From Escherichia coli (lineage in GTDB: Bacteria > Pseudomonadota > Gammaproteobacteria > Enterobacterales > Enterobacteriaceae), in the NCBI RefSeq assembly GCF_009931435.1, contig NZ_CP043414.1: 64,000 bases of DNA; one strand, 5' to 3'. A model generated the notes under the pieces. It worked only from the letters and a program-made list of their open reading frames with translations, did not search any database and was not told the origin of the DNA. Numbering within the stretch: position 1 is the first letter of the stretch; the number at the start of each line of letters is the position of its first letter. Below are positions 35,600 through 53,210 of the stretch, in pieces. Position numbers and translations under genes: made by a program.

Positions 35600-36148
35600 T
35601 TATTGATACTGAACCTTGAAGGTCGCATCCGCATTAGCAGCACCTGGGGTTGCGGCACCGGTTGCAAAGTAACGCGCCTGGAACGGAATGGTGTTAGTAC
35701 CGTTATTCAGGGTTGATTCTGCACTAAATGTCGCACCGTCCAGCGCCAGCGCAGCACCGGTTCTGTCCAGAATTTGCACACCAACGTTTGTTGCGCTACC
35801 TGCAGCAGAACTCTGCAGAGCCAGTACATCAGTATGCGTAGCATCAATTGCCGTACCTAAGAAGGCAACAGCGGCTTTTGTAGCAACAGTGGTATCGCAA
35901 TCATTCAGCTGAATGTTAAAACCAACGGCAGAGCTGGTTGCTCCAGTCTGCTTCAGGCTAGCGGTACGAACCTGTCCTAACTGAACGGTTTGATCAGCAG
36001 AGCCTGCATCAACTGCGCAAGCGGCGTTAACAACTTCCCCTTTGAAGTGAACGGTCCCACCATTTACCGTCGTAGTATCGGCCAGAGCCGCTGCGGAACT
36101 GAGGGACAGAGCCGACAGAACAACGATCGCCAAAGTTTTAATTTTCAT
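35600..36148 (-). CDS. fimA: type 1 fimbrial major subunit (182-aa precursor)
   Basis: [23 protein letters not shown] signal peptide followed by FimA sequence; start at 36148. Confidence 0.9.
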
Positions 36149-36266: not shown

Positions 36267-36580
36267 TTGGGGCCATTTTGACTCATAGAGGAAAGCATTA
36301 CGCACGAACTTTCTTAGTTTATTATTTGGATTTATATTCTATTAATACATTATTTTATAGATTTTTATATTGAACACGGTGGTTTTTGGAGAGATGAATG
36401 AGGAAGTTGCTTCGAGACACAGAAACGTTAGCTTTACCTATAGCGGAGGTGATGTGAAATTAATTTATAAGAGAAACAATTTACATATCAAACAGTTAGT
36501 TGCTTTATGTCGTTTTTTTATATTTTTATGCTTGAGAACAAATACAAAACTTTTTTATGATATGGACAGTTTGGCCCCAA
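36267..36580. promoter_or_regulatory. fimS: fimS invertible phase-variation switch (314 bp) bounded by 9-bp inverted repeats
   Basis: TTGGGGCCA at 36267-36275 and its reverse complement TGGCCCCAA at 36572-36580, between fimE and fimA; AT-rich interior. Confidence 0.85.
36532..36562 (+). promoter_or_regulatory. sigma70-type promoter inside fimS (-35 TTGAGA, 18-bp spacer, -10 TATGATA), reading toward fimE and away from fimA
   Basis: Hexamers at 36532-36537 and 36556-36562 on the plus strand next to the fimE-proximal inverted repeat. Confidence 0.5.
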
Positions 36581-36627
36581 TTGTCTTATATTTCCTTATC
36601 TTTTCATATTATTATCAATAAGTTACA

Positions 36628-37224
36628 TCAGGCATCTTCTCTTTTTAATTTTTCGTTTATGAGATTATTTCTTTCCCATAATCCGGCAAAACGTGCAGCA
36701 TTACTGGCGGTATAACGCACAGTATGGCGAATATTTCGATGCCCGAGATAATCCTGAATTAAACGGGTATCTGCACCACGCTCCGCCAGTTCATAACCGC
36801 AAGCATGCCTTAACATATGAGGATGAGTCTGCGTCACGGTTCCAGCTTCAATACCGGCATCGCGAATAATGCGATAGGCCTGCTGGCGAGAAAGTCGACT
36901 CCCGCGGCGAGAAATAAATATGGCGTCGGTCTGGTCAGCGCCTTTCCAGTTAATACGTTCCTGGGTCCAGCGCTCCACAGCTTCACGCTCATCAAAACGT
37001 AACGGGTGAACGGTAGAAAATCCGTTCTTCAGTCGGCGAATATTTATTCGACCTTCGTTAAGGTCAAGATCCTGATAATGCAGATCAAGCAGTTCACTAA
37101 TACGCATCCCATGCCGATATGCCAACAAAATTAGGCAATAATCTCTGGCTCCCGTTGCCCCGTAACAAACCGCCTGCATCATGTCCTGAACTTCTTTACC
37201 GGTAAGATAACGACGTTTACTCAC
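36628..37224 (-). CDS. fimE: tyrosine recombinase, fim switch regulator (ON-to-OFF bias), 198 aa
   Basis: Phage-integrase-family ORF adjacent to fimS. Confidence 0.9.
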   Translation of the reverse strand: MSKRRYLTGKEVQDMMQAVCYGATGARDYCLILLAYRHGMRISELLDLHYQDLDLNEGRINIRRLKNGFSTVHPLRFDEREAVERWTQERINWKGADQTDAIFISRRGSRLSRQQAYRIIRDAGIEAGTVTQTHPHMLRHACGYELAERGADTRLIQDYLGHRNIRHTVRYTASNAARFAGLWERNNLINEKLKREDA

Positions 37225-37701
37225 AATAGTAGTACTCCTGACTGAGATATATTTGAATGAATACCTATAGGAAACCTCGATCGGTTAAAATTAGCCCAAT
37301 AGATAAAAAGATAACCGCACAGGAAGTTATGTGGCTATCAGTCAATTACATTAAATATCATACAAAAATAAAATATCACTGATGTGACAACATCTATTTT
37401 CATTGATTTGATTCAATATAACAATAGATTGCAGCGGATTAACTTCCAGTTGCTTAAAAAATAAAGAAAAAAGTGCAGAAACAGGAGAGCTTGAGTGATG
37501 TGTAAATTTATGAATGATTTTGTTTATTTATTTTGAAGAACATAAACCATTGTATTTTGTATGGATATGGTTAACTTAATGTTTATTATGATAATTAAGA
37601 ATCACACTTACAATAACATCAATTAATAAATAGTTAATCATTTTTGATATATCGTAAGAATAATGTATTTTTTAACACCATCCCTGGTATCTCATCTATC
37701 T

Positions 37702-38304
37702 CTATAAAACAGCGTGATGCTGTCGTCCTCTGGCTCTATCCCAGATGCCGTAAAAACGCCCTGCATTGCTGGCGGTATACCAGACAGTATGACGAATATT
37801 GCGATGCCCAAGATAATCCTGGATAAGTCGTGTATCTATTCCCATATTCGCCAAAGCAAAACCACACGAATGGCGTAACATATGCGGATGAATCTCCAGT
37901 GATAACCCAGCATTACCACCAGAAGTCGAGATAATATGGTAAAACTGTTGCCGAGAAAGCGGGTTCCCCTTACGTGATAAAAATACCCACTCGCTCTCAG
38001 CATGCGGATAAGAAGTACGTATACTCAACCAGTTTTTTAAAGCCTGAACTTCTTTGTTCAATAGCGGGTGCGTTGTTGAAAAGCCTTTTTTTAATCGATG
38101 GATATAGATACACTTTGCCTTAAGATCAATATCCGAAATCCTCAATCGGCAAATTTCACTCGCCCGGAAACCATGAATAAAACAAAGCAAAGTCAGACAA
38201 TAATTACGTGCTGCATGAGGCCCGGTATTTGCTGCTTTAAGGAGTGACTCGATTTCACTATGGGTCAGGAAGTTCCTTTTTTTGTTATCAGCCTTATTCT
38301 TCAT
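37702..38304 (-). CDS. fimB: tyrosine recombinase, fim switch regulator, 200 aa
   Basis: Paralog of fimE (HPHMLRH.CG..LA..G.DTRLIQDYLGHRNIRHTV). Confidence 0.9.
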   Translation of the reverse strand: MKNKADNKKRNFLTHSEIESLLKAANTGPHAARNYCLTLLCFIHGFRASEICRLRISDIDLKAKCIYIHRLKKGFSTTHPLLNKEVQALKNWLSIRTSYPHAESEWVFLSRKGNPLSRQQFYHIISTSGGNAGLSLEIHPHMLRHSCGFALANMGIDTRLIQDYLGHRNIRHTVWYTASNAGRFYGIWDRARGRQHHAVL

Positions 38305-39328
38305 CGTTTTCCCTTATAATTACAGACGCGCACTAGCTGTGCTGGGTTAGCAATAATCCAACATTTTAATCCTGATTATGTTTATAAAAGCGAACGTTTG
38401 CTTAATAACTAACGTAAGTGGACCAGTTCTTCTGAGTGAACTTAAATGGAGTAGCGATAGTTACTTATAATAACTTTGCCATACAAACGCCATGCTCTTG
38501 CATGCTATGTACCTTTATATATTTATCAATCTGATACGAATCTAATAATAACCCTCATCATTAATGCAACTAATCTTATCTATATATCATGTGATATGTT
38601 CTGTAACAAGTAAAATCAACATAAAAAATTCAGCAAAATTTAATATTCGTTCAACTAGCCGTCTCACATATGACATTATTAGTCAACTGCATTTGCCACA
38701 AAATGGCTATTTCATGGAACGCAGTAATTTCTTAGCGTCTATTATCATGCTAATTCTTAGGTCCCTAGCGATTATTCCTGCCTGGTTCGTCAGCTTACGC
38801 CATGAGATTGCTACATTCCTTTTTATCCTGGAGATATGGGGGAACGCAGGCGACGCTTTTTCATCTACATTCATTGGTAAATATGGCTTTGGTCACTACG
38901 TCTTAAACCTTCTTCAATCACAGCTATTCGCCGGGCGATACGGCAAACAAACTAAGTGAAGCATCATCCTGAAAACACCAATGCGTACTGAACATCAACA
39001 AGCCTCTCCTGATCGACTTCAGAAGTGACCAGTTACAAGCCACAAACCTAGAAACATATTTCATGATGAGAATTATGCTCAGCCTGATGGCGGGTAAACG
39101 CTTATTTTCACCACGCTCACTGAGTTAGCCAGCAAAGCGCCCCTTGTTTAGAGCGCAAATAAATAACATATAAAACAAATAGTTAATCAAATATCTTTGA
39201 TTTGTGAAGGCCATCATAAGTGTTCGTCTGACTTCACATGGCATCTTCTTCATAGAAAAATATAGACATATTTTGTGACACGAATTGCAAATCTGGTTTT
39301 GTTATATGGATTGTGTGATTTTTGATCT

Positions 39329-39351
39329 GGTATAACAGGTATAAAGGTGTA
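39329..39351. promoter_or_regulatory. NanR-type operator (three GGTATA-like repeats) upstream of nanC
   Basis: GGTATAACAGGTATAAAGGTGTA, about 380 bp upstream of nanC start. Confidence 0.55.
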
Positions 39352-39731
39352 CCGCAGTAGTCAATGAGACTGAGCATCTCGCAATCTATGACAAACATCA
39401 CTTCAGTCTGAAAGGAATATGAAAATGAGATCAACAGACACTCTATTTTATGACTCAGGATAAAATGGATTGAGTAAGTGATATAGCTTACGAACATTCA
39501 AATCAATTAAACATCAGAAGAGATTTTATACTCAGGTATTTAATCTGGTTCTCTGTTTATTTAAATAATGTGGAAGAGAATTTTCACAGGAGACCTTATA
39601 CAAAAAATATAAAATACAGCTACCCGTTACCAAAGACACTATAAGCCTGGCAAAAATATTACACAACATAAATGCTAATTGTTTATGCGGGCTTTGTATT
39701 GCTTTCTGTATCCTACAAATGAGTGAAATTT

Positions 39732-40448
39732 ATGAAAAAGGCTAAAATACTTTCTGGCGTATTATTACTGTGCTTTTCGTCACCATTAATTTCTCAAGCT
39801 GCGACACTGGACATACGTGGTGGATATCGTAGTGGAAGCCACGCCTATGAGACTCGACTCAAAGTCAGTGAGGGATGGCAAAATGGATGGTGGGCAAGCA
39901 TGGAAAGTAATACCTGGAATACCATTCATGATAATAAAAAGGAAAATGCCGCACTCAATGATGTTCAGGTTGAAGTTAATTACGCGATTAAACTTGATGA
40001 TCAATGGACGGTGCGCCCGGGAATGTTAACGCATTTTAGCAGCAACGGCACACGCTACGGACCCTACGTAAAACTGTCCTGGGACGCGACAAAAGATCTT
40101 AATTTTGGCATTCGCTATCGTTACGACTGGAAAGCTTACCGACAACAAGACTTATCCGGTGATATGTCTCGTGATAACGTTCATCGTTGGGATGGATATG
40201 TCACTTACCATATTAATAGTGATTTCACCTTCGCATGGCAAACGACGCTATACAGCAAACAAAACGATTATCGCTATGCAAACCATAAGAAATGGGCGAC
40301 GGAAAATGCATTTGTTCTACAATACCATATGACGCCTGATATTACGCCATACATAGAATATGACTACCTTGACCGTCAGGGTGTTTATAACGGCAGAGAT
40401 AATTTATCAGAAAACAGTTATCGCATTGGTGTGTCATTTAAACTGTAG
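39732..40448 (+). CDS. nanC: N-acetylneuraminic acid outer-membrane channel (KdgM family), 238 aa
   Basis: Signal peptide plus beta-barrel porin-like ORF; ATG 39732. Confidence 0.85.
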   Translation: MKKAKILSGVLLLCFSSPLISQAATLDIRGGYRSGSHAYETRLKVSEGWQNGWWASMESNTWNTIHDNKKENAALNDVQVEVNYAIKLDDQWTVRPGMLTHFSSNGTRYGPYVKLSWDATKDLNFGIRYRYDWKAYRQQDLSGDMSRDNVHRWDGYVTYHINSDFTFAWQTTLYSKQNDYRYANHKKWATENAFVLQYHMTPDITPYIEYDYLDRQGVYNGRDNLSENSYRIGVSFKL

Positions 40449-40467
40449 TAGACAGGAGACAGTCACA

Positions 40468-41574
40468 ATGAATAAAACAATAACGGCGCTTGCTATCATG
40501 ATGGCTTCATTTGCCGCAAACGCGTCTGTATTACCGCAAACTCCGGTGCCTTTTAAAAGTGGTACCGGAGCAATTGATAACGACACTGTCTACATTGGTT
40601 TAGGTAGCGCAGGTACAGCATGGTACAAGCTGGATACACAGGCCAAAGATAAAAAATGGATAGCGTTAGCTGCATTCCCTGGTGGACCGAGAGATCAAGC
40701 AACCTCTGCATTTATTGATGGCAATCTGTATGTGTTTGGCGGCATTGGCAAAAACAGCGAGGGCTTGACTCAGGTATTTAATGACGTACACAAATACAAC
40801 CCCAAAACCAATAGCTGGGTTAAATTGATGTCGCACGCACCGATGGGCATGGCGGGCCATGTGACTTTTGTACACAACGGCAAGGCTTATGTTACTGGCG
40901 GTGTTAACCAGAATATCTTCAATGGCTATTTTGAAGATCTCAACGAAGCTGGAAAAGATCCAACCGCTATAGAGAAAATCAACGCCCACTATTTTGACAA
41001 ACAAGCAGAAGATTATTTCTTCAATAAGTTTCTGTTGTCTTTTGATCCCTCAACACAGCAATGGAGTTACGCTGGCGAATCTCCCTGGTACGGGACGGCT
41101 GGTGCAGCGGTTGTGAATAAAGGCGATAAAACCTGGCTTATTAATGGTGAAGCCAAACCAGGACTACGAACGGATGCCGTATTTGAACTTGATTTCACCG
41201 GTAATAATTTAAAATGGAATAAACTTGCTCCCGTCTCATCACCAGATGGCGTCGCTGGCGGTTTTGCGGGGATAAGCAATGACTCACTTATATTTGCCGG
41301 GGGGGCCGGATTCAAGGGGTCGCGGGAAAATTATCAGAACGGTAAGAACTATGCGCATGAAGGCCTGAAAAAATCATATAGCGCTGATATTCATCTTTGG
41401 CATAACGGGAAATGGGATAAATCGGGCGAATTATCGCAAGGTCGGGCCTACGGAGTATCATTGCCCTGGAATAATAGTCTATTGATTATTGGCGGTGAAA
41501 CTGCAGGCGGCAAAGCGGTGACGGATTCAGTTTTGATCTCTGTGAAGGATAATAAAGTCACAGTACAAAACTAA
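40468..41574 (+). CDS. nanM: N-acetylneuraminate mutarotase (Kelch-repeat), 368 aa
   Basis: Signal peptide (MNKTITALAIMMASFAANA) and Kelch-like repeats; AGGAG RBS at 40454. Confidence 0.85.
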   Translation: MNKTITALAIMMASFAANASVLPQTPVPFKSGTGAIDNDTVYIGLGSAGTAWYKLDTQAKDKKWIALAAFPGGPRDQATSAFIDGNLYVFGGIGKNSEGLTQVFNDVHKYNPKTNSWVKLMSHAPMGMAGHVTFVHNGKAYVTGGVNQNIFNGYFEDLNEAGKDPTAIEKINAHYFDKQAEDYFFNKFLLSFDPSTQQWSYAGESPWYGTAGAAVVNKGDKTWLINGEAKPGLRTDAVFELDFTGNNLKWNKLAPVSSPDGVAGGFAGISNDSLIFAGGAGFKGSRENYQNGKNYAHEGLKKSYSADIHLWHNGKWDKSGELSQGRAYGVSLPWNNSLLIIGGETAGGKAVTDSVLISVKDNKVTVQN

Positions 41575-44757: not shown

Positions 44758-46872
44758 TTAATCAGCCACTAATAGCGGACTAGGGATACCAGATGATGAA
44801 ACAAACAGCCCTTTTACGGCACGGGTTGCAGCCACATGCAGTAACGCGCGCTCATTAAATAATGCATCACGCTGTTCAACGGGATCATCGGATGCTAATG
44901 CTTTTATTTCCGGCACAACGCCTTCGTTAATCCCCACCAGGAACACATACTGGAACTCAAGCCCTTTAATACGGTGCATCGTTGCAACTCGCACGCCTGG
45001 GCGTGCATCGCTGTCACCGCTATCATTGCCTAAATTAAATGTCTCAATTCCGGCGTCATTGAGTGCTGATGCGTAGCGGTCACAAGCATGTTTAGTACGC
45101 GCAGTAATGCAGATATCCTGAGAACGAACCTGATTCGCCAGCAATGCCTGAATTTGCTTGACGAGTGTTGCAGCCTCTTCTTTGAAATCTGCCGCATGCG
45201 TAATCATGGGCTTTTCCCCGTGCAGTAATGACAAATAATCATTACTGGTATCCGCTTCGCCATCGAGGTTATCAACCTTCACACCAGTTAACAGCCCAAC
45301 AGCAAATTGACGCGTCTCTTCTGTGGTCCGATAGTTAATCTTCAATTTTTTACTGCGACGACCACGGACGTTAATACCACACTGACCAAGAACGACCTTA
45401 TTGCGATAAATACGCTGATGCCCATCCCCGACAATAAACAGATCGTTGGGCGACTCGGGAACCAGGCTGCGAATAAGAGTAAATGCCGGGGCACCGATAT
45501 CTTGAGCTTCATCGACGACAATACTGCTATAAGGTAGTTGGACCTGCTTTTCTTTAAACAGAACAATAGCCTCATGCATGGCATCGCCCATTTCGCGCAG
45601 TTTGGCACGCGCCATTTGTGCTCTGAATTCTTCGAAAACTGGCCAGATTTTCGCCCGTTGAATACGGGATAACGCTGTACCACGTCCAACCCGGCTGACT
45701 TTGAGGTATTCCTCCCGGGTGTAAACCGCATTTGGCTGGACAACGCGTTGCCACTCTTCAGCATAGAAATTGTCAGGTAGCCCCAGTTCGGCAGGTGCCT
45801 GCTGCAAGGCATAGTTCCAGCATTTACGTCGCCCTTCATCGCTGTCGTATACCACGCGGAAATCATAACCGTGGCGTTTTAGTTGGTCGCTCATCCAGGC
45901 ATCAATGTTAACGACGTCAATACGCGCCATCTCTTCTCGCGTACACAACCGCTGGAGATTAGCGCGAATATCTGCCGCCAGGTTACGCGTAAAGGTCGTG
46001 AAAAGTACCTTCTTACCGGGTTTATCTACCAGACGCTGAGATAACCACCGCGCACGGTGCATTGCAACAACCGTTTTCCCTGTACCTGCACCGCCCAGTA
46101 CTCGTACCGGACCATTAGCGGGCGACTCCACCAGTTTTCGCTGGCTCGGGTGCAGAAATACACGCCATTTTTCTAAAGGCGCATTAAGCATCTGCAATAG
46201 TTCCTGTTCATTTTCAACGACATGGAAGCGACGTTTACTTCGTTCAATCGCCTCCATAAAGTCGTTGGTATCAACAGGCTCATCACGATGATCGTTAAAC
46301 TCTTCCAGCACTTCCTGGTAATCCAGCCCTTCTGCCAGCCAGTGCAGAGGTTCCCAGGCTTCTGCTGGCATTATGCTTTCAAGTTGATTAAGCCCGGCTT
46401 CATCGGTAAGCGCCATCACCTGATCAATAAAGACAGGCGGCACACCCAGGGCCAGAATCTGTTCCGCGCTGTAAGCTGCGAAGAGTTTCGGTTTATCAAC
46501 CACCGTTTCCGCTGCCGGTTTGATATAGCTAATATCAATGACCTGAATCGCGCCAGTAACCGGGTGAATCGAACAATCATGCCGCCGCGCCCAGTCATAT
46601 GCTTCGTCGTGTTTATCCACCCACATCAGCATATACAGAGCACCCTGTTCAGGTTTCAGAACAATGCCGCGATAAGTTTGATCGATTCGCACCGAATGGA
46701 CATTTTTACTGCGCGCATCGTGGATCTTTTCATAGTTAAGTCCATTACTGGTCGGGTCCTGACGGAATTTGGAGATGAATTCCTGCACCTTTTTTTGCTG
46801 TGCTTTTGGGATCCGCGCGAATGCGCCCAGAAAACCATCAGAAAGTGCCACCTTGGGCGTTTGCACCGTCAT
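44758..46872 (-). CDS. UvrD/Rep-like superfamily 1 helicase (704 aa), last gene of defence-like operon
   Basis: Q-motif and Walker A (LHPSQRKLV...GGAGTGKT), VVDEAQD, GDGHQRIY, YRTTEE, MHRIKGLEF; ATG overlaps upstream stop (ATGA). Confidence 0.8.
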   Translation of the reverse strand: MTVQTPKVALSDGFLGAFARIPKAQQKKVQEFISKFRQDPTSNGLNYEKIHDARSKNVHSVRIDQTYRGIVLKPEQGALYMLMWVDKHDEAYDWARRHDCSIHPVTGAIQVIDISYIKPAAETVVDKPKLFAAYSAEQILALGVPPVFIDQVMALTDEAGLNQLESIMPAEAWEPLHWLAEGLDYQEVLEEFNDHRDEPVDTNDFMEAIERSKRRFHVVENEQELLQMLNAPLEKWRVFLHPSQRKLVESPANGPVRVLGGAGTGKTVVAMHRARWLSQRLVDKPGKKVLFTTFTRNLAADIRANLQRLCTREEMARIDVVNIDAWMSDQLKRHGYDFRVVYDSDEGRRKCWNYALQQAPAELGLPDNFYAEEWQRVVQPNAVYTREEYLKVSRVGRGTALSRIQRAKIWPVFEEFRAQMARAKLREMGDAMHEAIVLFKEKQVQLPYSSIVVDEAQDIGAPAFTLIRSLVPESPNDLFIVGDGHQRIYRNKVVLGQCGINVRGRRSKKLKINYRTTEETRQFAVGLLTGVKVDNLDGEADTSNDYLSLLHGEKPMITHAADFKEEAATLVKQIQALLANQVRSQDICITARTKHACDRYASALNDAGIETFNLGNDSGDSDARPGVRVATMHRIKGLEFQYVFLVGINEGVVPEIKALASDDPVEQRDALFNERALLHVAATRAVKGLFVSSSGIPSPLLVAD

Positions 46873-49800
46873 TTGTCACCTCCGGACAGATGTTGCAATG
46901 TATTTTCGTCAATTGGCCCGAATGCAACGTGCCAACCCCTGGTTGTGAATAATGGAATAAATTCTTGATTATCAATAATCAATGCCCATTTTTGTGATGG
47001 CCAGGCGAGATCGGCTTCCGCAATAATTTCACCTTCATCATTTTGCAATTCGTAGCCGAGAGTCGGCGCAGAGAGAGAATGAGACTGAAGCAACGCGATC
47101 TCTTCAGCGCTTAATAAGCCAAACTCAATAATCTCAGCCCAACTTTCATCAGTCTCTGGTACTGCCTCTGGCGTTGCCGTAACTTTAACGTCAACGCTTT
47201 CCTGCGGTAAATGTACGGCTTTACGGCTGGTAAAGGTCATATCCGGCAGGAACTGTAACAGGTTTACCAGTCGCCAGAAGCCATTGAGTCCCGCTTCATA
47301 ACCGTCATCCTGCGTATAGCGATCGTCAAAACAGATATGCAAACGCAGCCAGCTGCGCATTTGTGCGACACTGGTCGTCGGTTTAATGGCTTGTTGTGGC
47401 AACACCGAAGCCAGCTCAATAAATTGCTGCGATGAGTTACAGCTATCGAGTAAACCACCAAAGACAAACGGTTCGTCTGGCAAAAGCTCTGCTAGCCGCC
47501 AGTCTGGCGCGTTTTCCTGCATTTCATAGGCATACTTTTGTTTCGTTCCCGCGTCCTGTGACTTCTTCACATCCAACCACACCCAGGCATGTGCAGCAGC
47601 CATTTTCTGCCATAACTGCGTTCTTCCTCCCGGCTCGGCGAGATAATCCAGCAGCAGTGCAAAACTGTTGCGTTCCCGGAACGACGCTTCAAGGGCCGCA
47701 AAGTTGGTATCGTGAAACAGGTTATAAAACTTAGGCTGTTTCATATCCGGGTTATGCCCAAGCCCCAGGACATCCTGAACATGTTTAAGCCCAGGCTCTT
47801 TGAGATCGGCCCACGTGACTGTCCACACCCAGAAATTACCGCTATCCCGAATCGCCTGGCGTTTTTGCACATCCTCTGCGACGCTATTTTTGTGAAACGC
47901 AAAGCCATCAAGGAAAATAGCTACCGGTTTAATGGCATCAGACTGCATAAGCGGATATAGCACGTAATCCGGGCGACAAGGGATCCCCACAGCCTCTTTA
48001 GCGCCTAAATCCACCTGAGCTTTAAGATGCCAGCTCATCATCGGTTCGCTGCGGGTGTTAATAATCCACCCAGCGCCCTGATGCGCGTAACTGCGACTGA
48101 CAATCAGGTTTTTATTTTCTTGCAGGCAGCTAATAAACCGTTTTTCCAGCTCACTGCCCATCATGGCTTCGAGGGAAATGTTTTTGATGGAATCAATTAC
48201 CCGTATCGAATCTCTTGCCTGCAAAATTTTCGCCAGCAAGAGACGCGCCTGATCGCGGGAGACATACTTCATGCGCCCACGGTCACGGTAAGCGTAAACG
48301 CAACGATAACAACCATCTTTATGCGTATCATGGTTGCAACTGCATTCCACTATCGCCTGATAGGCCAGTTCAAGTAATTTCAGCAAATTGTCGGGAGTGC
48401 GCATCAGCTCTTTAAGAGAACCAGTCCCCCCCGGGACGGTATCGTAAATCACCAGATACTGCCGCCAGGATTCGCCTTCATTTTCCGGCTCGCGGTACAC
48501 AACGCCTTTCAGGTGATCGACATTCCCCTTGAAGTAATGTTTAAGGCCGAGCTGGATCGCCGCCCCAAGAGAAGCCTCCACGACACGGTCATTACTGTAA
48601 CTGCTTACCGGGAGCAGAATTCGCAACGCTTCTGACTCCAGCTGGCGATAGAGATAGAGATAATCTTCGAACTTCGCCTTTTCCGGTTCCGTGCGATATT
48701 TGCAGCTCAAATCATGACGTGGTTCATGATCGCGAGGACGCTGTACCATGCCGCACCCCAGGCAAACTTTAAACCCGGTTCGCTTCTTCGCTTCTCCGGC
48801 AATCATCAACTCATTGGCATCATCCGCCATTTTGCCGAAGTTGATATCCCGCAGGGTGACTTTGCTTAAAAATTCAAAACCAAACGGAACTTCGCCTTCC
48901 TCAATCGCGTATGCCGCCGATACATCTTCTTTTTCGAAACTAACCAATAGCTGACGCTGGAAGAAAGCAGGTTCACGGCTGTCGCTCTCGTCGCTGATCT
49001 GGCTATCACGTGCGCTGGCGCGGGCATACACCTGGCGAAGTTTCAGCAGCGTGGTTTTTTGTCCGGCGTCGGCCCACCCCGGTGTGCCACATTTCGGGCA
49101 ATATTTATGCTGGTCGCCCGTCTGGTCGATATTTTCGCTGTAGTTACAGTGGCTACAGATACGCCAGTTCTCCGGCTCAGAGACCTTCAGGTCTATCTGC
49201 TCAATTTCAACTTTATGCCCACCGGCATAGAAATTATTCAGCGGAGCCAGCTCAGCCAGCGCCGTTGATGCCGGGCGTTCATATTCGAAAGTGGTGTTTT
49301 GATATTCACGCGCTTCCCCGCCTTCTTTACGCCGCCAGAGCACAGAACGTAACGTAATACCGGCTTCCGGGAAGGCGTAGTTAGGCAGCAGACCTTCATC
49401 CGTGAGGAAATTCAGCGTCTGCTTATTGTTGATTTGATTGACTAGCGCCATCAGCGCCTGCCGTTCTGAAGTTAACTCGCGCATATCGCTGTCAAAGTTT
49501 TGATCGCGCGGCGCGTTCTCCAGCTTATCGATACTGCGCTTGAGTTTATCGATGCGTGAACGCAGAGATTTGCGATCTTCCACCAGCAGTTTTAACGCCT
49601 CTTCGATACGCTGCACCAGAGAGCGTTGTCCTGGCGCGCCCTGAAGATAAGACAACAACTGTTGGCGAGTTTCTGCGGCAAGATCGGGGAAGATCGCCGT
49701 AAATTGTGCAGCAATCTCCGCATGATGCTGTTCGATATATCTCAGTAAGTTATACGGAAAACCCGATTTACGCCCGAACTCCAGCTCATCCAGCATCTGT

Positions 49801-52800
49801 TTGACGTTTTTACAGATAGCGGATTCTGGTACACCGGTTTTCACCCAGTTATCCATACAAAAAGCTGCCAGCTGGCGTTCGAGAATAGCCGTTGCATTGA
49901 GGAAGACGCCAGGAGCCTGCACCTGGCCCTGCATCATCTCCAGCGGTTCTTCAAAGAAAAACTGATCGTGCGGGTTCCCTTCTGCCACGGTAATGTTTAA
50001 CGCGTTACCATCTTTACGACCGGCGCGACCAATACGCTGCAAGTAGTTGGCCTGAGCAGGTGGGACAGAACAGAGTAAAACGGTGGAAAGATCCCCAACG
50101 TCAATACCCATCTCCAGCGTCGGTGTTGCCGACAACAGGTTGATATTCCACGGTTGGTTGCCACGGTAGAACGATTTTTCGGTGGCTTCGCGATCTTCAC
50201 GGCTAAGCAGCCCCGTGTGTTCTGCGCCCTGCACGCGCGCGATGTCCATGTTCTCCCAACGCCAGGTCGCCATATTGTCGACTTCCTGGTAACGACCTTC
50301 ACAACGTAAAGAGAGACAAGGCGCATTACGCCACTGCCAGCCTTGATCGGCCGGAGCCCGGACAACCTCACGGCAACATGAGCAATTAAGCTGAACGACG
50401 TCACGGCTCACCACCAGCGCCGAAGGCACCAGTCCCCAGGCTTCACGCCCTTTGGTGTCAAAATCTTTTACTACTCCGGCTATTTTCAACGCCGTAAACA
50501 GGCGTCGTAACACTGTTTCCGCAACGCTACTGATAAACAGATTATTGCCGTTACTCAGCGTGCGATTGATCCAATGCTGATACCAACTGGGGTTAGACTT
50601 CGCGCCAATCAGGCGATGGAAACCATTAATTTTTTCAAACGACGCATAAGCCGGTTTACGCGTTTTCGGACCGATAGAAGGCATATAGCGCGATGTACGC
50701 TCTTTTTGCGTCATCATAAAGGTCGTGCCATCACGGCGATAACTTTCGAACGCCGGATGCATAACGGCCCCGGCCTGGCGTTGATACCAGATAACCCCCA
50801 GCGCCAGGTGCGCTACCTGCTCGACGCTCACACCGGACATCTCATCACCCAGCTCTTCACAAAGCTGTTGATGCAGGGCGGTAATTGCCGGATTAAAGCG
50901 TTCTTTATCCACTCCGGCAACGGCATAACCGGTGGCTTCCAGCGTACGTCCGATACGCGCGCGCAGGGTAAATTCGCTGTACACCTCCCAGTCGAGGCGC
51001 AGGGAAACCAGCTCCGGCAGATCGGAGTTCTCCGCCAGTTTGCCTTCATTTTTCAGTGTCTGATAATCATTCAGCCACTGCATATTTGGTGCGATGAAGT
51101 TCGCTGCAAAATGAGCATCGTCCGGTGAACGTTCACGCGTTTGTTGGCAAACACGCGCCGCGAACGCATCCAGCGGTAATGTCTCTTTTTCGCCAAGAAC
51201 ACTGGCGATTTGCCCACGAATCATCAGCGGCCAGGTTCGGGCAGTAAAAAAGCTGGCACGATGCGCGGCGTCTTGTACCGAGTCAGAAAACGTAATCAGC
51301 TTTTTATGTTCGTTGAACTGGCTGCCATAAAGCTGGTGAATCATCACCGCCGACAAACTGGCAGCCCGTGACCCCAGAATCGAAATCCCCTGTTTGCTGT
51401 TGCAGTACGGGCATTCATTAGCAAACTCCAGCTCGTCCTTACGCTCTTTGAGCATATCCGGGATCAGTACCTGCAACAGTTCCGTATGACCGCAATGTCC
51501 ACACTGGACGCTGGACTGTCGGTTCAGTTTCAGACAGGTAGGGCACAGTTTCTGGTGTGCGCCACTGACCGCTTTTTCGTTGTTATCCGGGAAAGCAAGG
51601 ACGATGGAGCGCCCTTTTTCAAAGAACTGGCGATAAATGCCGTCGAGGTCTGTTTCCAGCTGAACGCTTTGCCCATGACGCAGGCTGGCCCAGCCAGTTG
51701 CGTGGCAGTCACGGCAGTGGATAACCGGCAAATAGTGTTCGCGGTCTTCCACCGCCACATCATCGGCAAACACCAGTCTCGGCGTTTTCGCCACGCTGGC
51801 GACCAGACGACGCATCTCACGAAGCCACAACTGGGAGCGCAGTTGCACAAACGGCAGCACCGGGCGCGCTTTCTTCGCCTGGAGACGTTTTTGCCGATCG
51901 TGTTCCATTTCCGGTACTTCGAGACGTGCCTGTGCGATCAGCGCCAGAATGCTTTGCAGCACGCGTCGGGCATGGTCGGCGCTTTCTGCCAGCATAACCT
52001 GGAGATTTTCCAGACACTCTCGTTCAGAGAGGATCCCGCCTTGCAGATCATGGAGTAAGACATGCATCACGCTGTGGCGGCGTAACAGTGACCCCAGCGC
52101 AATACGCTTTTCACGCCCGTCGTCGCTCTCCAGATCGTCCGGGAGTTGCAAGTCGCTGTCGGGGAACCACAAAGGGATTTGCCCGTTAAGATACGCTACC
52201 GGGGTAGCGTAACTCTGCGGGTCCAGGGCCGAAGCGACCTCCTGCCCCGGATACTGACTGTACGCAATGGCGTAATCCTGCAAGTACTCCGCTGCCGTGT
52301 AGCGATCTTCGCGAATAACGGCGTCATCGGTAAACGGCTGGTCAAAGATTGTTTTTGCGTAATCGAGCAGTTGCCCCAGTTCGTCGCCGACGGTCGCTGA
52401 TGTCCCGACACAGGCGAATCGTTGGTTATCCACACCTATGTGATGCTTCAGACGTCGCACCAGACAGGCCAGATCCGACCCTTGCGCGCCATCAAACGTA
52501 TGCAATTCATCCACGACCAGGTAGCGCAATGAACCGGGCTGGTTGTAACGCCAGAGCGGCTGATCGCCAGGGCGCATCAGCAGGTAGTCGAGCATTTTGT
52601 AGTTGGTCAACAGGATGTCCGGCGGGCTTTCGCGCAGCGTGTGCTTGCAGGTAATGACCTTTTCTGCCGACATTTTTTTGCTGGGTTCGATTTCGCTGTC
52701 GCCGACAAACAGGCCGACGGTCACCTTGCCATGCAGTTGTGGATCGCTGGCGATGGTTTTGGCGAAACGGCTGGCCTGATCGGTTGCCAGGGCGTTCATC

Positions 52801-53210
52801 GGGTAGATGATAATCGCTTTAACCCCGGCTTGTGACGCGCCCGCGCAGTGGTTGAGCAGCGGGAACATAAAACATTCTGTTTTACCGGAGCCGGTACCGG
52901 TAGCGACCAGTGTCGGCTGTGGCGCGTCGCTTCCCAGACGCTGAAATGCCCGGGCCTGATGCGCGTGCGGCGGGAACGGCAGCGTCAGATTAGGGAAAAA
53001 ATTCAGCGGTAAGTCACTTTTACGAAACGGCAACTGGGCGGAAAGGTATGGTCCTTTCAGCAGCGTTTCCGGCTGGGCCAGAAATTGCTCCAGCATTGAG
53101 ACATTATCGTTATTCTCACCGTTAAACAGCGGGCTGTTTAGCGGGAACGCCGCCCGTAAAAAGGCGGCAACGCTGTCGGCGACCTGCCGACTGACAACGG
53201 ACGGCAACAT
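46869..53210 (-). CDS. giant DExH-box helicase with Zn-ribbons, DUF1998 (MrfA-like) domain and C-terminal Vsr/DUF559-like nuclease fold (2113 aa)
   Basis: Motif I GTGSGKT (~aa 105), motif II DELH (~234), TSAT (~270), motif VI QRIGRAGR (~1057); DUF1998-type IYDTVPGGTGS...CSCNHDTHKDGCYRC (~1590-1640); RPDYV...VAIFLDGFAFH...D..KRQAIRDSGNFWVWTVTWADL (~1745-1805). Confidence 0.8.
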   Translation of the reverse strand: MLPSVVSRQVADSVAAFLRAAFPLNSPLFNGENNDNVSMLEQFLAQPETLLKGPYLSAQLPFRKSDLPLNFFPNLTLPFPPHAHQARAFQRLGSDAPQPTLVATGTGSGKTECFMFPLLNHCAGASQAGVKAIIIYPMNALATDQASRFAKTIASDPQLHGKVTVGLFVGDSEIEPSKKMSAEKVITCKHTLRESPPDILLTNYKMLDYLLMRPGDQPLWRYNQPGSLRYLVVDELHTFDGAQGSDLACLVRRLKHHIGVDNQRFACVGTSATVGDELGQLLDYAKTIFDQPFTDDAVIREDRYTAAEYLQDYAIAYSQYPGQEVASALDPQSYATPVAYLNGQIPLWFPDSDLQLPDDLESDDGREKRIALGSLLRRHSVMHVLLHDLQGGILSERECLENLQVMLAESADHARRVLQSILALIAQARLEVPEMEHDRQKRLQAKKARPVLPFVQLRSQLWLREMRRLVASVAKTPRLVFADDVAVEDREHYLPVIHCRDCHATGWASLRHGQSVQLETDLDGIYRQFFEKGRSIVLAFPDNNEKAVSGAHQKLCPTCLKLNRQSSVQCGHCGHTELLQVLIPDMLKERKDELEFANECPYCNSKQGISILGSRAASLSAVMIHQLYGSQFNEHKKLITFSDSVQDAAHRASFFTARTWPLMIRGQIASVLGEKETLPLDAFAARVCQQTRERSPDDAHFAANFIAPNMQWLNDYQTLKNEGKLAENSDLPELVSLRLDWEVYSEFTLRARIGRTLEATGYAVAGVDKERFNPAITALHQQLCEELGDEMSGVSVEQVAHLALGVIWYQRQAGAVMHPAFESYRRDGTTFMMTQKERTSRYMPSIGPKTRKPAYASFEKINGFHRLIGAKSNPSWYQHWINRTLSNGNNLFISSVAETVLRRLFTALKIAGVVKDFDTKGREAWGLVPSALVVSRDVVQLNCSCCREVVRAPADQGWQWRNAPCLSLRCEGRYQEVDNMATWRWENMDIARVQGAEHTGLLSREDREATEKSFYRGNQPWNINLLSATPTLEMGIDVGDLSTVLLCSVPPAQANYLQRIGRAGRKDGNALNITVAEGNPHDQFFFEEPLEMMQGQVQAPGVFLNATAILERQLAAFCMDNWVKTGVPESAICKNVKQMLDELEFGRKSGFPYNLLRYIEQHHAEIAAQFTAIFPDLAAETRQQLLSYLQGAPGQRSLVQRIEEALKLLVEDRKSLRSRIDKLKRSIDKLENAPRDQNFDSDMRELTSERQALMALVNQINNKQTLNFLTDEGLLPNYAFPEAGITLRSVLWRRKEGGEAREYQNTTFEYERPASTALAELAPLNNFYAGGHKVEIEQIDLKVSEPENWRICSHCNYSENIDQTGDQHKYCPKCGTPGWADAGQKTTLLKLRQVYARASARDSQISDESDSREPAFFQRQLLVSFEKEDVSAAYAIEEGEVPFGFEFLSKVTLRDINFGKMADDANELMIAGEAKKRTGFKVCLGCGMVQRPRDHEPRHDLSCKYRTEPEKAKFEDYLYLYRQLESEALRILLPVSSYSNDRVVEASLGAAIQLGLKHYFKGNVDHLKGVVYREPENEGESWRQYLVIYDTVPGGTGSLKELMRTPDNLLKLLELAYQAIVECSCNHDTHKDGCYRCVYAYRDRGRMKYVSRDQARLLLAKILQARDSIRVIDSIKNISLEAMMGSELEKRFISCLQENKNLIVSRSYAHQGAGWIINTRSEPMMSWHLKAQVDLGAKEAVGIPCRPDYVLYPLMQSDAIKPVAIFLDGFAFHKNSVAEDVQKRQAIRDSGNFWVWTVTWADLKEPGLKHVQDVLGLGHNPDMKQPKFYNLFHDTNFAALEASFRERNSFALLLDYLAEPGGRTQLWQKMAAAHAWVWLDVKKSQDAGTKQKYAYEMQENAPDWRLAELLPDEPFVFGGLLDSCNSSQQFIELASVLPQQAIKPTTSVAQMRSWLRLHICFDDRYTQDDGYEAGLNGFWRLVNLLQFLPDMTFTSRKAVHLPQESVDVKVTATPEAVPETDESWAEIIEFGLLSAEEIALLQSHSLSAPTLGYELQNDEGEIIAEADLAWPSQKWALIIDNQEFIPLFTTRGWHVAFGPIDENTLQHLSGGDK

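What the first reader, a model, noticed from the sequence alone, without database searches (positions are those of the whole stretch)
38305..39731. 1.4-kb AT-rich fimB-nanC divergent control region with a NanR-type operator
An unusually long intergenic region carries a triple GGTATA repeat (39329-39351) upstream of nanC, consistent with sialic-acid-responsive control feeding into fimB. ORFs predicted inside it (e.g. 38564-38959) are AT-rich and probably non-coding.
Basis: partly seen in the sequence, partly recalled or inferred. Interest (0 to 1): 0.3.

Follow-up and report, generated by a model that had tools for sequence, protein, structure and literature searches.

The report
Known fimB–nanC sialic-acid control region
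This is the well-studied E. coli DNA spacer between the fimbrial switch gene fimB and the sialic-acid porin gene nanC, carrying the known NanR repressor site; it is ordinary, except that this strain has a rare sequence variant of it.

Summary
Window 38305-39731 is the 1,427-bp spacer (36% GC against 49% for the window) between divergent fimB (37702-38304, minus) and nanC (39732-40448, plus). The repeat at 39329-39351 reads GGTATA-ACA-GGTATA-AA-GGTGTA: two perfect hexamers and one imperfect. It is unique in the window (0.01 expected by chance). It matches the K-12 nanA and nanX NanR operators at 22 of 23 bases; K-12's own nanC operator (third hexamer GGTGCA) matches them at 21 of 23.

The other K-12 elements are also in place: SlyA sites, an inferred fimB promoter inside a 104-bp invariant block, two NagC-type sites exactly 212 bp apart, and the GATC beside the NanR site. 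Their distances from the inferred fimB start fit the published range of about -470 to -760.

ORF 38564-38959 lies over the fimB promoter. It is truncated in 7 of 15 full-length E. coli alleles, K-12 included, and has no family match, so it is non-coding.

The only new point is that the window carries a rare haplotype. Its core differs about 14% from K-12, it has a derived 34-bp deletion just nanC-side of the operator (7 of 5,426 complete genomes), and it lacks the GATC next to the NagC site. Any functional effect is untested.

The parts
37702..38304 (-). fimB coding sequence (tyrosine-type DNA invertase of the fim switch)
   Evidence: NCBIfam NF007370, 456 bits, full length. Colinear with annotated K-12 fimB b4312.
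38305..38574 (-). Inferred fimB 5' untranslated leader (about 270 nt) ending at the inferred transcription start, 38574
   Evidence: The start is back-calculated from OSA2, published as -194 to -183 (PMC3173223) and located at 38768-38757. There are no indels against K-12 in between. Inference.
38581..38609 (-). Inferred fimB core promoter: -35 TTGTTA (38609-38604), 17-nt spacer, -10 TATATA (38586-38581)
   Evidence: Read directly from the reverse complement. It lies inside the longest invariant block of the spacer, 38554-38657, 104 bp identical in 15 E. coli alleles.
38564..38959 (+). 131-codon ORF, judged non-coding; it overlies the fimB promoter and the SlyA/H-NS-bound upstream region
   Evidence: Truncated by frameshifts or stops in 7 of 15 full-length alleles: K-12, O157, EC100, AHM9, Ec1119, A29, RM11911. 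Variable sites by codon position are 10/18/22. GC is flat across codon positions at 0.40/0.36/0.38. No NCBIfam or Pfam match.
38742..38768 (-). SlyA operators OSA1 (38742-38753) and OSA2 (38757-38768), overlapped by H-NS sites in K-12
   Evidence: Exact matches to the published TTAGCATGATAA and CTAGGGACCTAA, 3 bp apart (PMC3173223; positions).
38980..38990 (.). 11 bp (AATGCGTACTG) present here and in the rare-haplotype strains but absent from K-12 and most E. coli
   Evidence: Alignments.
39055..39077 (.). NagC-type operator, candidate ONC2 (CATATTTCATGATGAGAATTATG)
   Evidence: Sits in a 27-bp block (39051-39077) invariant in 15 alleles and is conserved in the divergent strain E69. At -481 to -503 here (-470 to -492 in K-12) it fits 'around 470 bp upstream' (PMC3173223). 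It is one of only two matches to the shared pattern in 64 kb. The site boundary is my assignment.
39174..39186 (.). Candidate IHF site (AACAAATAGTTAA, one mismatch to WATCAANNNNTTR), near the midpoint between the two NagC-type sites
   Evidence: Read from the sequence and largely conserved in strains and in E69. That IHF binds midway between the sites is recalled from Sohanpal 2007, which is not held. Weak inference.
39267..39289 (.). NagC-type operator, candidate ONC1 (CATATTTTGTGACACGAATTGCA), overlapping a CRP-like site TGTGACACGAATTGCA (39274-39289)
   Evidence: Centre-to-centre distance to ONC2 is exactly 212 bp. Near-invariant in the aligned strains (one change in strain 2017-02-2CC) and one change in E69. 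The CRP-like half-site sits within one base of the same spacing in the nanA and nanX modules.
39324..39327 (.). GATC (Dam site) 1 bp before the NanR operator
   Evidence: Position. NanR binds within 5 bp of such GATC sites at nanA, nanC and yjhB (PMC5155068).
39329..39351 (+). NanR operator ONR: GGTATA-ACA-GGTATA-AA-GGTGTA. The first repeat contains TATAAC (39331-39336), the inferred nanC -10 element
   Evidence: The first two hexamers are invariant in 16 alleles; the third varies: GGTGTA, GGTGCA, GGTATG, GATGTA, GATGCA. Two repeats suffice for high-affinity NanR binding (PMC8012715).
39399..39407 (.). Junction of a 34-bp deletion relative to K-12; a single CACTTCAGT copy remains where K-12 has two copies 34 bp apart
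   Evidence: The junction is found in 7 of 5,426 complete E. coli genomes. The segment is retained in the outgroup E69 and in the paralogous nanX leader, so the deletion is derived.
39408..39731 (+). Conserved nanC-proximal block, the inferred nanC 5' leader
   Evidence: About 8-16% mismatch to E69 for most of its length, against 28-64% in most 25-bp bins from 38880 to 39254, apart from the conserved ONC2 block at 39055-39079 (0.12). No Rfam family.
39732..40448 (+). nanC coding sequence (N-acetylneuraminate outer-membrane channel), followed by nanM and nanS
   Evidence: 98.5-100% identical to K-12 nanC in 200-bp bins. Annotation. nanM matches NF010730 at 599 bits.

Best explanation
The region is the E. 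coli fimB-nanC divergent control region, and it most likely works as described for K-12.

nanC side. Dimers of the GntR-type repressor NanR assemble cooperatively on the GGTATA repeats at 39329-39351. By homology with nanA, these repeats overlap the nanC -10 element (inference). Bound NanR shuts off nanCMS. N-acetylneuraminate releases NanR and induces the porin operon.

NagC sites. NagC, which responds to GlcNAc-6-P, occupies two sites 212 bp apart (39055-39077 and 39267-39289). It probably loops the DNA across an IHF bend. The nanC-proximal NagC site overlaps a CRP-like site centred at about -61.5.

fimB side. The same bound NanR and NagC act about 480-780 bp away as activators of the fimB promoter (inferred start 38574). 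That promoter is otherwise silenced by H-NS on this AT-rich DNA and is relieved by SlyA at 38742-38768. Host-derived sialic acid or GlcNAc therefore lowers FimB, lowers OFF-to-ON switching of the fim switch, and reduces type 1 fimbriation.

What is shown and what is inferred. Shown here: the identity, position, spacing and conservation of the sites. Taken from the literature: protein binding and the direction of regulation. Inferred: the nanC start site, the IHF site, and that this rare allele behaves like K-12.

The internal ORFs are non-coding by-products of AT-rich DNA.
For: - Orthology with annotated K-12 fimB, nanC, nanM and nanS.
- The operator is unique in the window and matches K-12 nanA and nanX at 22/23.
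- The same GATC-plus-operator string sits in front of nanA in 40-odd Enterobacteriaceae species.
- NanR SELEX peak in the nanC-fimB spacer (PMC4797297).
[quoted passage not shown] These map to -755/-777 and -481/-503 here, and 11 bp less in K-12.
- The two NagC-type 20-mers are the only matches in 64 kb, with 0 expected.
- Conservation islands coincide with the fimB promoter, ONC2 and the ONC1-ONR block, inside otherwise polymorphic DNA.
- Three NanR dimers bind (GGTATA)3, and two repeats give similar affinity (PMC8012715).
- SlyA sites are exact.
- The ORF is disrupted in 7 of 15 alleles and has no family hits.
Against: - No binding or expression data exist for this allele.
- The third hexamer is degenerate and varies between strains.
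- The primary papers that map ONC1, ONC2, IHF and the nanC start (Sohanpal 2004 and 2007, Condemine 2005, Kalivoda 2013) are not held. The exact site boundaries and the 212-bp figure therefore rest partly on my recollection and on sequence logic.
- A review says the operators lie upstream of the putative start sites (PMC3658417). That leaves the nanC start unresolved.
- The consensus promoter scan did not pick up either promoter.
- This allele has a 34-bp deletion, an 11-bp insertion and about 14% substitutions in the core, any of which could change the output.
Confidence: 0.93

Rival explanations
1. The region is the known control region, but this rare haplotype is a functionally altered regulatory variant. 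The 34-bp deletion next to the operator, the loss of the GATC beside ONC1, the 11-bp insertion and the substitutions around the candidate IHF site would change how strongly sialic acid or GlcNAc controls nanC and/or fimB.
For: - The core 39100-39480 is at least 95% identical in only 6 of 5,099 genomes.
- The deletion junction occurs in 7 of 5,426 genomes.
- The divergent patch (86% and 76.5% identity to K-12 in the 200-bp bins 39101-39300 and 39301-39466) lies between coding flanks that are 95-100% identical.
- The 34-bp segment is ancestral: it is present in E69 and in the nanX paralogue.
- K-12 has AGATCGACAT next to ONC1 where the window has ATATAGACAT.
- The 11-bp insertion moves the whole distal module about one helical turn further from the fimB promoter.
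Against: - ONR, both NagC-type sites, their 212-bp spacing, the CRP-like site and the fimB promoter are all intact.
- The deletion lies on the nanC side of every mapped fimB activating site.
- The deleted segment shows no significant RNA structure (z about 0 to +1).
- The ONC1-adjacent GATC is also missing in other common alleles (Ec1119, A29, AHM9) and in E69, so it is dispensable.
- An 11-bp change keeps helical phase.
Confidence: 0.15
2. ORF 38564-38959, or its shorter version that NCBI's pipeline annotates as a hypothetical protein in strain AZ184, is a real small protein gene embedded in the spacer.
For: - The ORF is intact at 131 codons in 8 of 15 alleles.
- A hypothetical protein, WP_001328298.1, is annotated over its 3' part in AZ184.
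- There is a slight excess of variable sites at codon position 3 (22 against 10 and 18).
Against: - It is frameshifted or truncated in K-12, O157 and five other lineages.
- It has no Pfam or NCBIfam match.
- GC is flat across codon positions.
- It starts 10 bp inside the fimB transcript on the opposite strand and covers the fimB promoter and the SlyA/H-NS sites.
- Only one of the 30 genomes sampled has any annotated feature under the match, and K-12 is not that one.
Confidence: 0.04
3. The hexamer repeat is a chance feature of AT-rich DNA with no operator function, and the spacer is merely an H-NS-coated gap between genes.
For: The region is AT-rich (36% GC), and short repeats are common in such DNA. 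The third hexamer is not conserved.
Against: - Only 0.01 matches are expected by chance in 64 kb.
- The GATC flank and the first 20 bases are identical to the nanA and nanX operators.
- The first two hexamers are invariant in 16 alleles and in the divergent E69.
- Genomic SELEX places NanR on this spacer.
Confidence: 0.01

Closest known systems
E. coli K-12 fimB-nanC (yjhA) intergenic regulatory region with operators ONR, ONC1, ONC2 and an IHF site (El-Labany 2003; Sohanpal 2004, 2007; summarised in McVicker 2011, PMC3173223)
   Same: Same flanking genes and orientation. Same NanR operator position. The same two NagC-type sites 212 bp apart. The same SlyA operators and the same fimB promoter block. 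The spacer is 93.7% identical overall.
   Different: 1,427 bp instead of 1,455 bp. A 34-bp deletion on the nanC side of ONR, and an 11-bp insertion between the fimB promoter region and ONC2. The third hexamer is GGTGTA rather than GGTGCA. There is no GATC next to ONC1, and only 3 GATC sites in the spacer against 6 in K-12. The stretch from ONC2 to ONR has about 14% substitutions.
NanR (GGTATA)3 operator of nanATEK-yhcH (Kalivoda 2003; Horne 2021, PMC8012715)
   Same: 22 of 23 bases identical, including spacers ACA and AA and the upstream GATCTG. A CRP-type half-site lies about 50 bp upstream, within one base of the same spacing.
   Different: The third hexamer has one mismatch. At nanA the start codon follows the operator by 38 bp, while here nanC starts 380 bp downstream. 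Here the operator also serves a second promoter about 770 bp away in the opposite direction.
nanXY (yjhBC) promoter-operator-leader module of K-12
   Same: It is paralogous to the nanC upstream region over about 290 bp (65% identity, E 4e-25), covering the CRP-like site, the operator and part of a roughly 400-nt leader.
   Different: The nanX module keeps a perfect third GGTATA and keeps the counterpart of the 34-bp segment that is deleted here. Its counterpart position fits the NagC-type pattern less well, as judged by eye from the alignment.

Membership tests
NanR operator of the E. coli sialoregulon | At least two direct GGTATA hexamers separated by 2-3 nt spacers | tested here: met
   GGTATA-ACA-GGTATA-AA-GGTGTA at 39329-39351. 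Two repeats suffice for nanomolar binding (PMC8012715).
NanR operator of the E. coli sialoregulon | A third perfect GGTATA hexamer, giving the (GGTATA)3 form that binds three dimers | tested here: not met
   The third hexamer is GGTGTA. K-12 nanC itself has GGTGCA, and strains vary (GGTATG, GATGTA, GATGCA). This feature is not required for the nanC member of the family.
NanR operator of the E. coli sialoregulon | Base-for-base alignment with experimentally defined operators | tested here: met
   22/23 to K-12 nanA and nanX. One base different from K-12 nanC, in the third hexamer.
NanR operator of the E. coli sialoregulon | Located upstream of a sialoregulon operon (nanATEK, nanCMS or nanXY) | tested here: met
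   380 bp upstream of nanC-nanM-nanS.
NanR operator of the E. coli sialoregulon | GATC (Dam) site within 5 bp of the operator | tested here: met
   GATC at 39324-39327. The feature is described in PMC5155068.
NanR operator of the E. coli sialoregulon | Bound by NanR and released by N-acetylneuraminate | not testable with these tools
   Known for the K-12 orthologue only (PMC4797297 and PMC8012715). nanR is not in the window.
Distal activating module of fimB (ONR + ONC1 + IHF + ONC2) | [quoted passage not shown] | tested here: met
   With +1 inferred at 38574 from the OSA2 coordinates, ONC2 is at -481/-503 and ONR at -755/-777; both are 11 bp less in K-12.
Distal activating module of fimB (ONR + ONC1 + IHF + ONC2) | Two NagC-type 23-bp sites at a fixed spacing (212 bp, recalled from Sohanpal 2007) | tested here: met
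   Sites at 39055-39077 and 39267-39289, centres 212 bp apart. They are the only two matches in the window, with 0 expected. Each has a TTT-N9-(G)AA core like the footprinted LEE1 NagC site (PMC5401889). The pattern was derived from the two sites themselves, so its uniqueness is only weak independent support.
Distal activating module of fimB (ONR + ONC1 + IHF + ONC2) | IHF site between the NagC sites | tested here: inconclusive
   AACAAATAGTTAA at 39174-39186 has one mismatch to WATCAANNNNTTR, lies near the midpoint and is conserved in E69. Such matches are common in AT-rich DNA.
Distal activating module of fimB (ONR + ONC1 + IHF + ONC2) | NanR and NagC activate fimB, and Neu5Ac and GlcNAc reduce it | not testable with these tools
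   K-12 data only (PMC3173223).
Protein-coding gene (ORF 38564-38959) | Reading frame kept intact across strains | tested here: not met
   Truncated in 7 of 15 alleles.
Protein-coding gene (ORF 38564-38959) | Match to a known protein family | tested here: not met
   No NCBIfam hit at E up to 0.01 and no Pfam hit at E up to 1.

The most novel reading that the evidence does not exclude
The window carries a rare natural regulatory haplotype of the fimB-nanC control region: deletion junction in 7 of 5,426 complete E. coli genomes, and a core about 14% diverged between near-identical coding flanks. It may have been imported by recombination. It would reset how sialic acid and GlcNAc tune the NanC porin and type 1 fimbrial phase switching. 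A 14-codon upstream ORF (39419-39463) whose length is conserved even in a divergent Escherichia lineage might add a leader-peptide layer to nanC control.
Probability: 0.12. Interest if true: 0.35.

Novelty: already known. Interest (0 to 1): 0.12.

Why it matters
The region links host-derived amino sugars, which signal inflammation and mucus breakdown, to both sialic-acid uptake and the ON/OFF switch of type 1 fimbriae, a major colonisation and urinary-tract virulence factor. That link has been known for K-12 since 2003-2007, so finding it here adds only correct annotation. The modest added value is a catalogue of natural variation. The operators and the fimB promoter are conserved islands. The DNA between them is a polymorphism hot spot. 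This strain's allele, with a 34-bp leader deletion and no Dam site at ONC1, is a ready-made natural variant for testing which spacer features matter.

Tried and rejected
- Primary papers were not obtainable. Sohanpal 2004 (DOI and PMC526197), Condemine 2005 (PMC1064066) and Kalivoda 2013 (PMC3807447) are not held. Site positions were therefore reconstructed from McVicker 2011 and from the sequence.
- The Rfam scan of 37000-41000 at E up to 1 found no RNA family.
- The consensus promoter and terminator scan gave fewer promoter-like hits than shuffles and none at the expected places, so it was uninformative.
- RNA folding of the 34-bp segment and its flanks in K-12, the window and E69 gave z-scores of +0.2 to +1.2. 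There is no evidence for a structured element, so the idea that the deletion removes a leader hairpin was dropped.
- My first guess was that the 34-bp segment was the NagC site ONC1. I rejected it once distances from the fimB start and the 212-bp pair placed ONC1 on the fimB side of ONR.
- I considered an apparent compensatory palindrome at 39183-39205, but other alleles do not keep it.
- The genome-contig scan was meant to recover other Escherichia species' fimB-nanC spacers. It returned mostly nanA operators and only one divergent nanC-type locus, E69. Because GATC was part of the search pattern, that scan says nothing about GATC conservation.
- Literature searches for the nanC start site found nothing usable.

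Full report
**What is there.** ORF listing and alignment to annotated E. coli K-12 MG1655 fix the genes. The order is fimA, fimE (36628-37224) and fimB (37702-38304) on the minus strand, then nanC (ATG 39732 to 40448), nanM and nanS on the plus strand. The finding's interval, 38305-39731, is exactly the fimB-nanC spacer. It is 1,427 bp long, against 1,455 bp in K-12. GC is 36.0%, compared with 48.7% for the window and 42-43% for the two flanking genes. The region is found in 5,109 of 5,426 complete E. coli genomes, and K-12 has no annotated feature in it.

**The repeat.** Positions 39329-39351 read GGTATAACAGGTATAAAGGTGTA. That is two perfect GGTATA hexamers and a third with one mismatch, separated by spacers of 3 and 2 nt. 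It is the only match in 64 kb even when two mismatches are allowed, and shuffles give 0.01 matches.

I extracted the three K-12 operators for comparison. nanA and nanX (yjhB) both read GGTATAACAGGTATAAAGGTATA. K-12 nanC reads ...GGTGCA. All three are preceded by GATCTG. The window's site is therefore 22/23 identical to the canonical operator, one base closer than K-12's own nanC site.

Across 16 E. coli alleles the first two hexamers never vary. The third is GGTGTA, GGTGCA, GGTATG, GATGTA or GATGCA. Horne et al. showed that three NanR dimers assemble cooperatively on (GGTATA)3, that one repeat binds poorly, and that two repeats give similar affinity (PMC8012715). The degenerate third hexamer therefore does not argue against function. 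I ran that test and the repeat aligns.

**The rest of the control region.** McVicker et al. give the SlyA operators as TTAGCATGATAA (OSA1) and CTAGGGACCTAA (OSA2, at -194 to -183). [quoted passage not shown] Both SlyA sites are present as exact matches at 38742-38753 and 38757-38768.

These coordinates put the fimB start at 38574 on the minus strand. Just upstream I read TTGTTA, a 17-nt spacer, then TATATA (38609-38581). This sits inside the longest invariant block of the spacer, 104 bp from 38554 to 38657.

Two similar 23-mers lie with their centres exactly 212 bp apart: CATATTTCATGATGAGAATTATG (39055-39077) and CATATTTTGTGACACGAATTGCA (39267-39289). They are the only two matches to their shared pattern in the window, and none is expected by chance. 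Each has the TTT-N9-(G)AA core of a footprinted NagC site (PMC5401889). The first is invariant and the second near-invariant across the aligned strains, and both are conserved in a much more divergent Escherichia genome, E69.

Relative to the inferred fimB start, these sites are at -481/-503 and -693/-715, and the NanR operator is at -755/-777. In K-12 all are 11 bp closer. That fits the published 470-760 range. I therefore assign the two 23-mers as ONC2 and ONC1. The 212-bp figure and the IHF site between them come from my recollection of Sohanpal 2007, which is not held. AACAAATAGTTAA (39174-39186) is a plausible IHF site, but the evidence for it is weak.

**The nanC promoter (inference).** The upstream regions of nanA, nanX and nanC align beyond the operator. 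nanC and nanX are paralogous over about 290 bp (65% identity, E 4e-25). A CRP-like site (TGTGACACGAATTGCA, 39274-39289) is centred 49.5 bp before the TATAAC inside the first repeat. If TATAAC is the -10 element, the start is near 39343, CRP sits at -61.5, NanR covers the promoter, and ONC1 overlaps the CRP site. That arrangement would explain repression of nanC by both NanR and NagC. This step is not verified. One review places the operators upstream of the putative start sites (PMC3658417), and the mapping papers were unavailable.

**The internal ORF.** ORF 38564-38959 (131 aa) begins 10 bp inside the fimB transcript on the opposite strand. It runs across the fimB promoter and the SlyA/H-NS sites. 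It is intact in 8 of 15 full-length alleles. Frameshifts or stops truncate it in K-12, O157, EC100, AHM9, Ec1119, A29 and RM11911. GC is flat across codon positions, and variable sites by codon position are 10/18/22. It has no NCBIfam or Pfam match. One genome annotates a hypothetical protein over its 3' part.

**What is unusual about this copy.** Identity to K-12 is 95-100% in fimB and nanC. It falls to 86% in 39101-39300 and to 76.5%, indels included, in 39301-39466. For the core 39100-39480, only 6 of 5,099 genomes are at least 95% identical; 4,958 are 80-90% identical.

The haplotype has four distinguishing features:
- An 11-bp insertion at 38980-38990.
- Many substitutions between ONC2 and ONC1.
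- No GATC beside ONC1. K-12 has AGATCGACAT where the window has ATATAGACAT. The spacer holds three GATC sites against six in K-12.
- A 34-bp deletion that leaves a single CACTTCAGT (39399-39407) where K-12 has two copies 34 bp apart.

A 60-nt query across the deletion junction is covered in full in only 7 of 5,426 genomes. The divergent E69 spacer and the paralogous nanX leader both keep the segment, so the deletion is derived.

The deletion lies on the nanC side of every site implicated in fimB control, and it leaves all operators and their spacing intact. Folding the segment as RNA shows nothing beyond shuffled controls. The ONC1-adjacent GATC is also absent from several common alleles and from E69. 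I therefore rate a functional change as possible but unproven, at about 0.15.

**Conservation pattern.** Within E. coli, and against E69, the conserved islands are:
- the fimB promoter block;
- ONC2;
- a block of roughly 100 bp running from ONC1 through the operator;
- most of the 330 bp before the nanC start codon.

The stretches 38955-39054 and 39130-39254 are polymorphism hot spots. This is the footprint expected of discrete protein-binding sites embedded in spacer DNA.

**Verdict.** The feature is a textbook-level known system, so novelty is 'already known' and interest is low. The rare haplotype is a minor curiosity that could serve as a natural regulatory variant.

Noticed in passing
window 39419-39463 (+): A 14-codon ORF (MKMRSTDTLFYDSG*) sits behind AAAGGAA in the conserved nanC-proximal block. 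It has the same length and stop in K-12 (MKMRSTDILFYDSG*) and in the divergent Escherichia genome E69 (MKMRSTNNPFYDTG*). The paralogous nanX leader does not keep it as a short ORF. It could be a leader peptide or chance.
   Followed up: partly
window 39229-39520; K-12 loci L001 3936-4215 and L017 3551-3838: The upstream regions of nanC and nanX (yjhB) are paralogous over about 290 bp (65% identity, E 4e-25). The shared stretch covers the CRP-like site, promoter, GATC, NanR operator and roughly 190 bp of leader. The two accessory sialoregulon operons appear to share a duplicated regulatory module, each with a spacer of about 400 nt before the start codon.
   Followed up: partly
window 44758-63802 (-): A defence-gene island follows nanS. 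It contains a UvrD/GajB-like helicase, a 2,113-aa DruE-like helicase with an MZB (DUF1998) domain, a 1,644-aa type IIG restriction-methylase/DrmMI-like protein, a DrmD-like SNF2 helicase, and an 857-aa protein matching the C-terminal part of DruE3. It looks like a Druantia/DISARM-like mix. Homology with K-12 ends at about 42657.
   Followed up: partly
window 35700-36100 and 36300-36700: fimA and the fimA-fimE spacer that holds the invertible fim switch are 86.5-90% identical to K-12, against 95-99% for neighbouring fimE and fimB. This fits the known hypervariability of fimA.
   Followed up: no
loci L007 (strain AJ5), L008 (AZ184), L011 (2017-02-2CC): Natural damage to the fimB side occurs in other strains. 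In AJ5 an IS1 element replaces the first ~260 bp of the spacer and fimB. fimB is annotated as a pseudogene in AZ184 and in 2017-02-2CC, and the latter carries the same rare spacer haplotype as the window.
   Followed up: no
loci L018-L066 (genome-contig scan): The string GATCTGGTATAACAGGTATAAAGG lies 30-45 bp before the nanA start codon in some 40 species of Citrobacter, Enterobacter, Buttiauxella, Lelliottia, Pseudocitrobacter, Trabulsiella, Yokenella and Salmonella enterica subsp. arizonae. The third hexamer varies even there (GGTATA, GGTATG, GGTACA, GGTAGG, GGTATC). Two hits, in a Bacteroides MAG and in a Methylobacterium assembly, are evidently E. coli contamination.
   Followed up: partly
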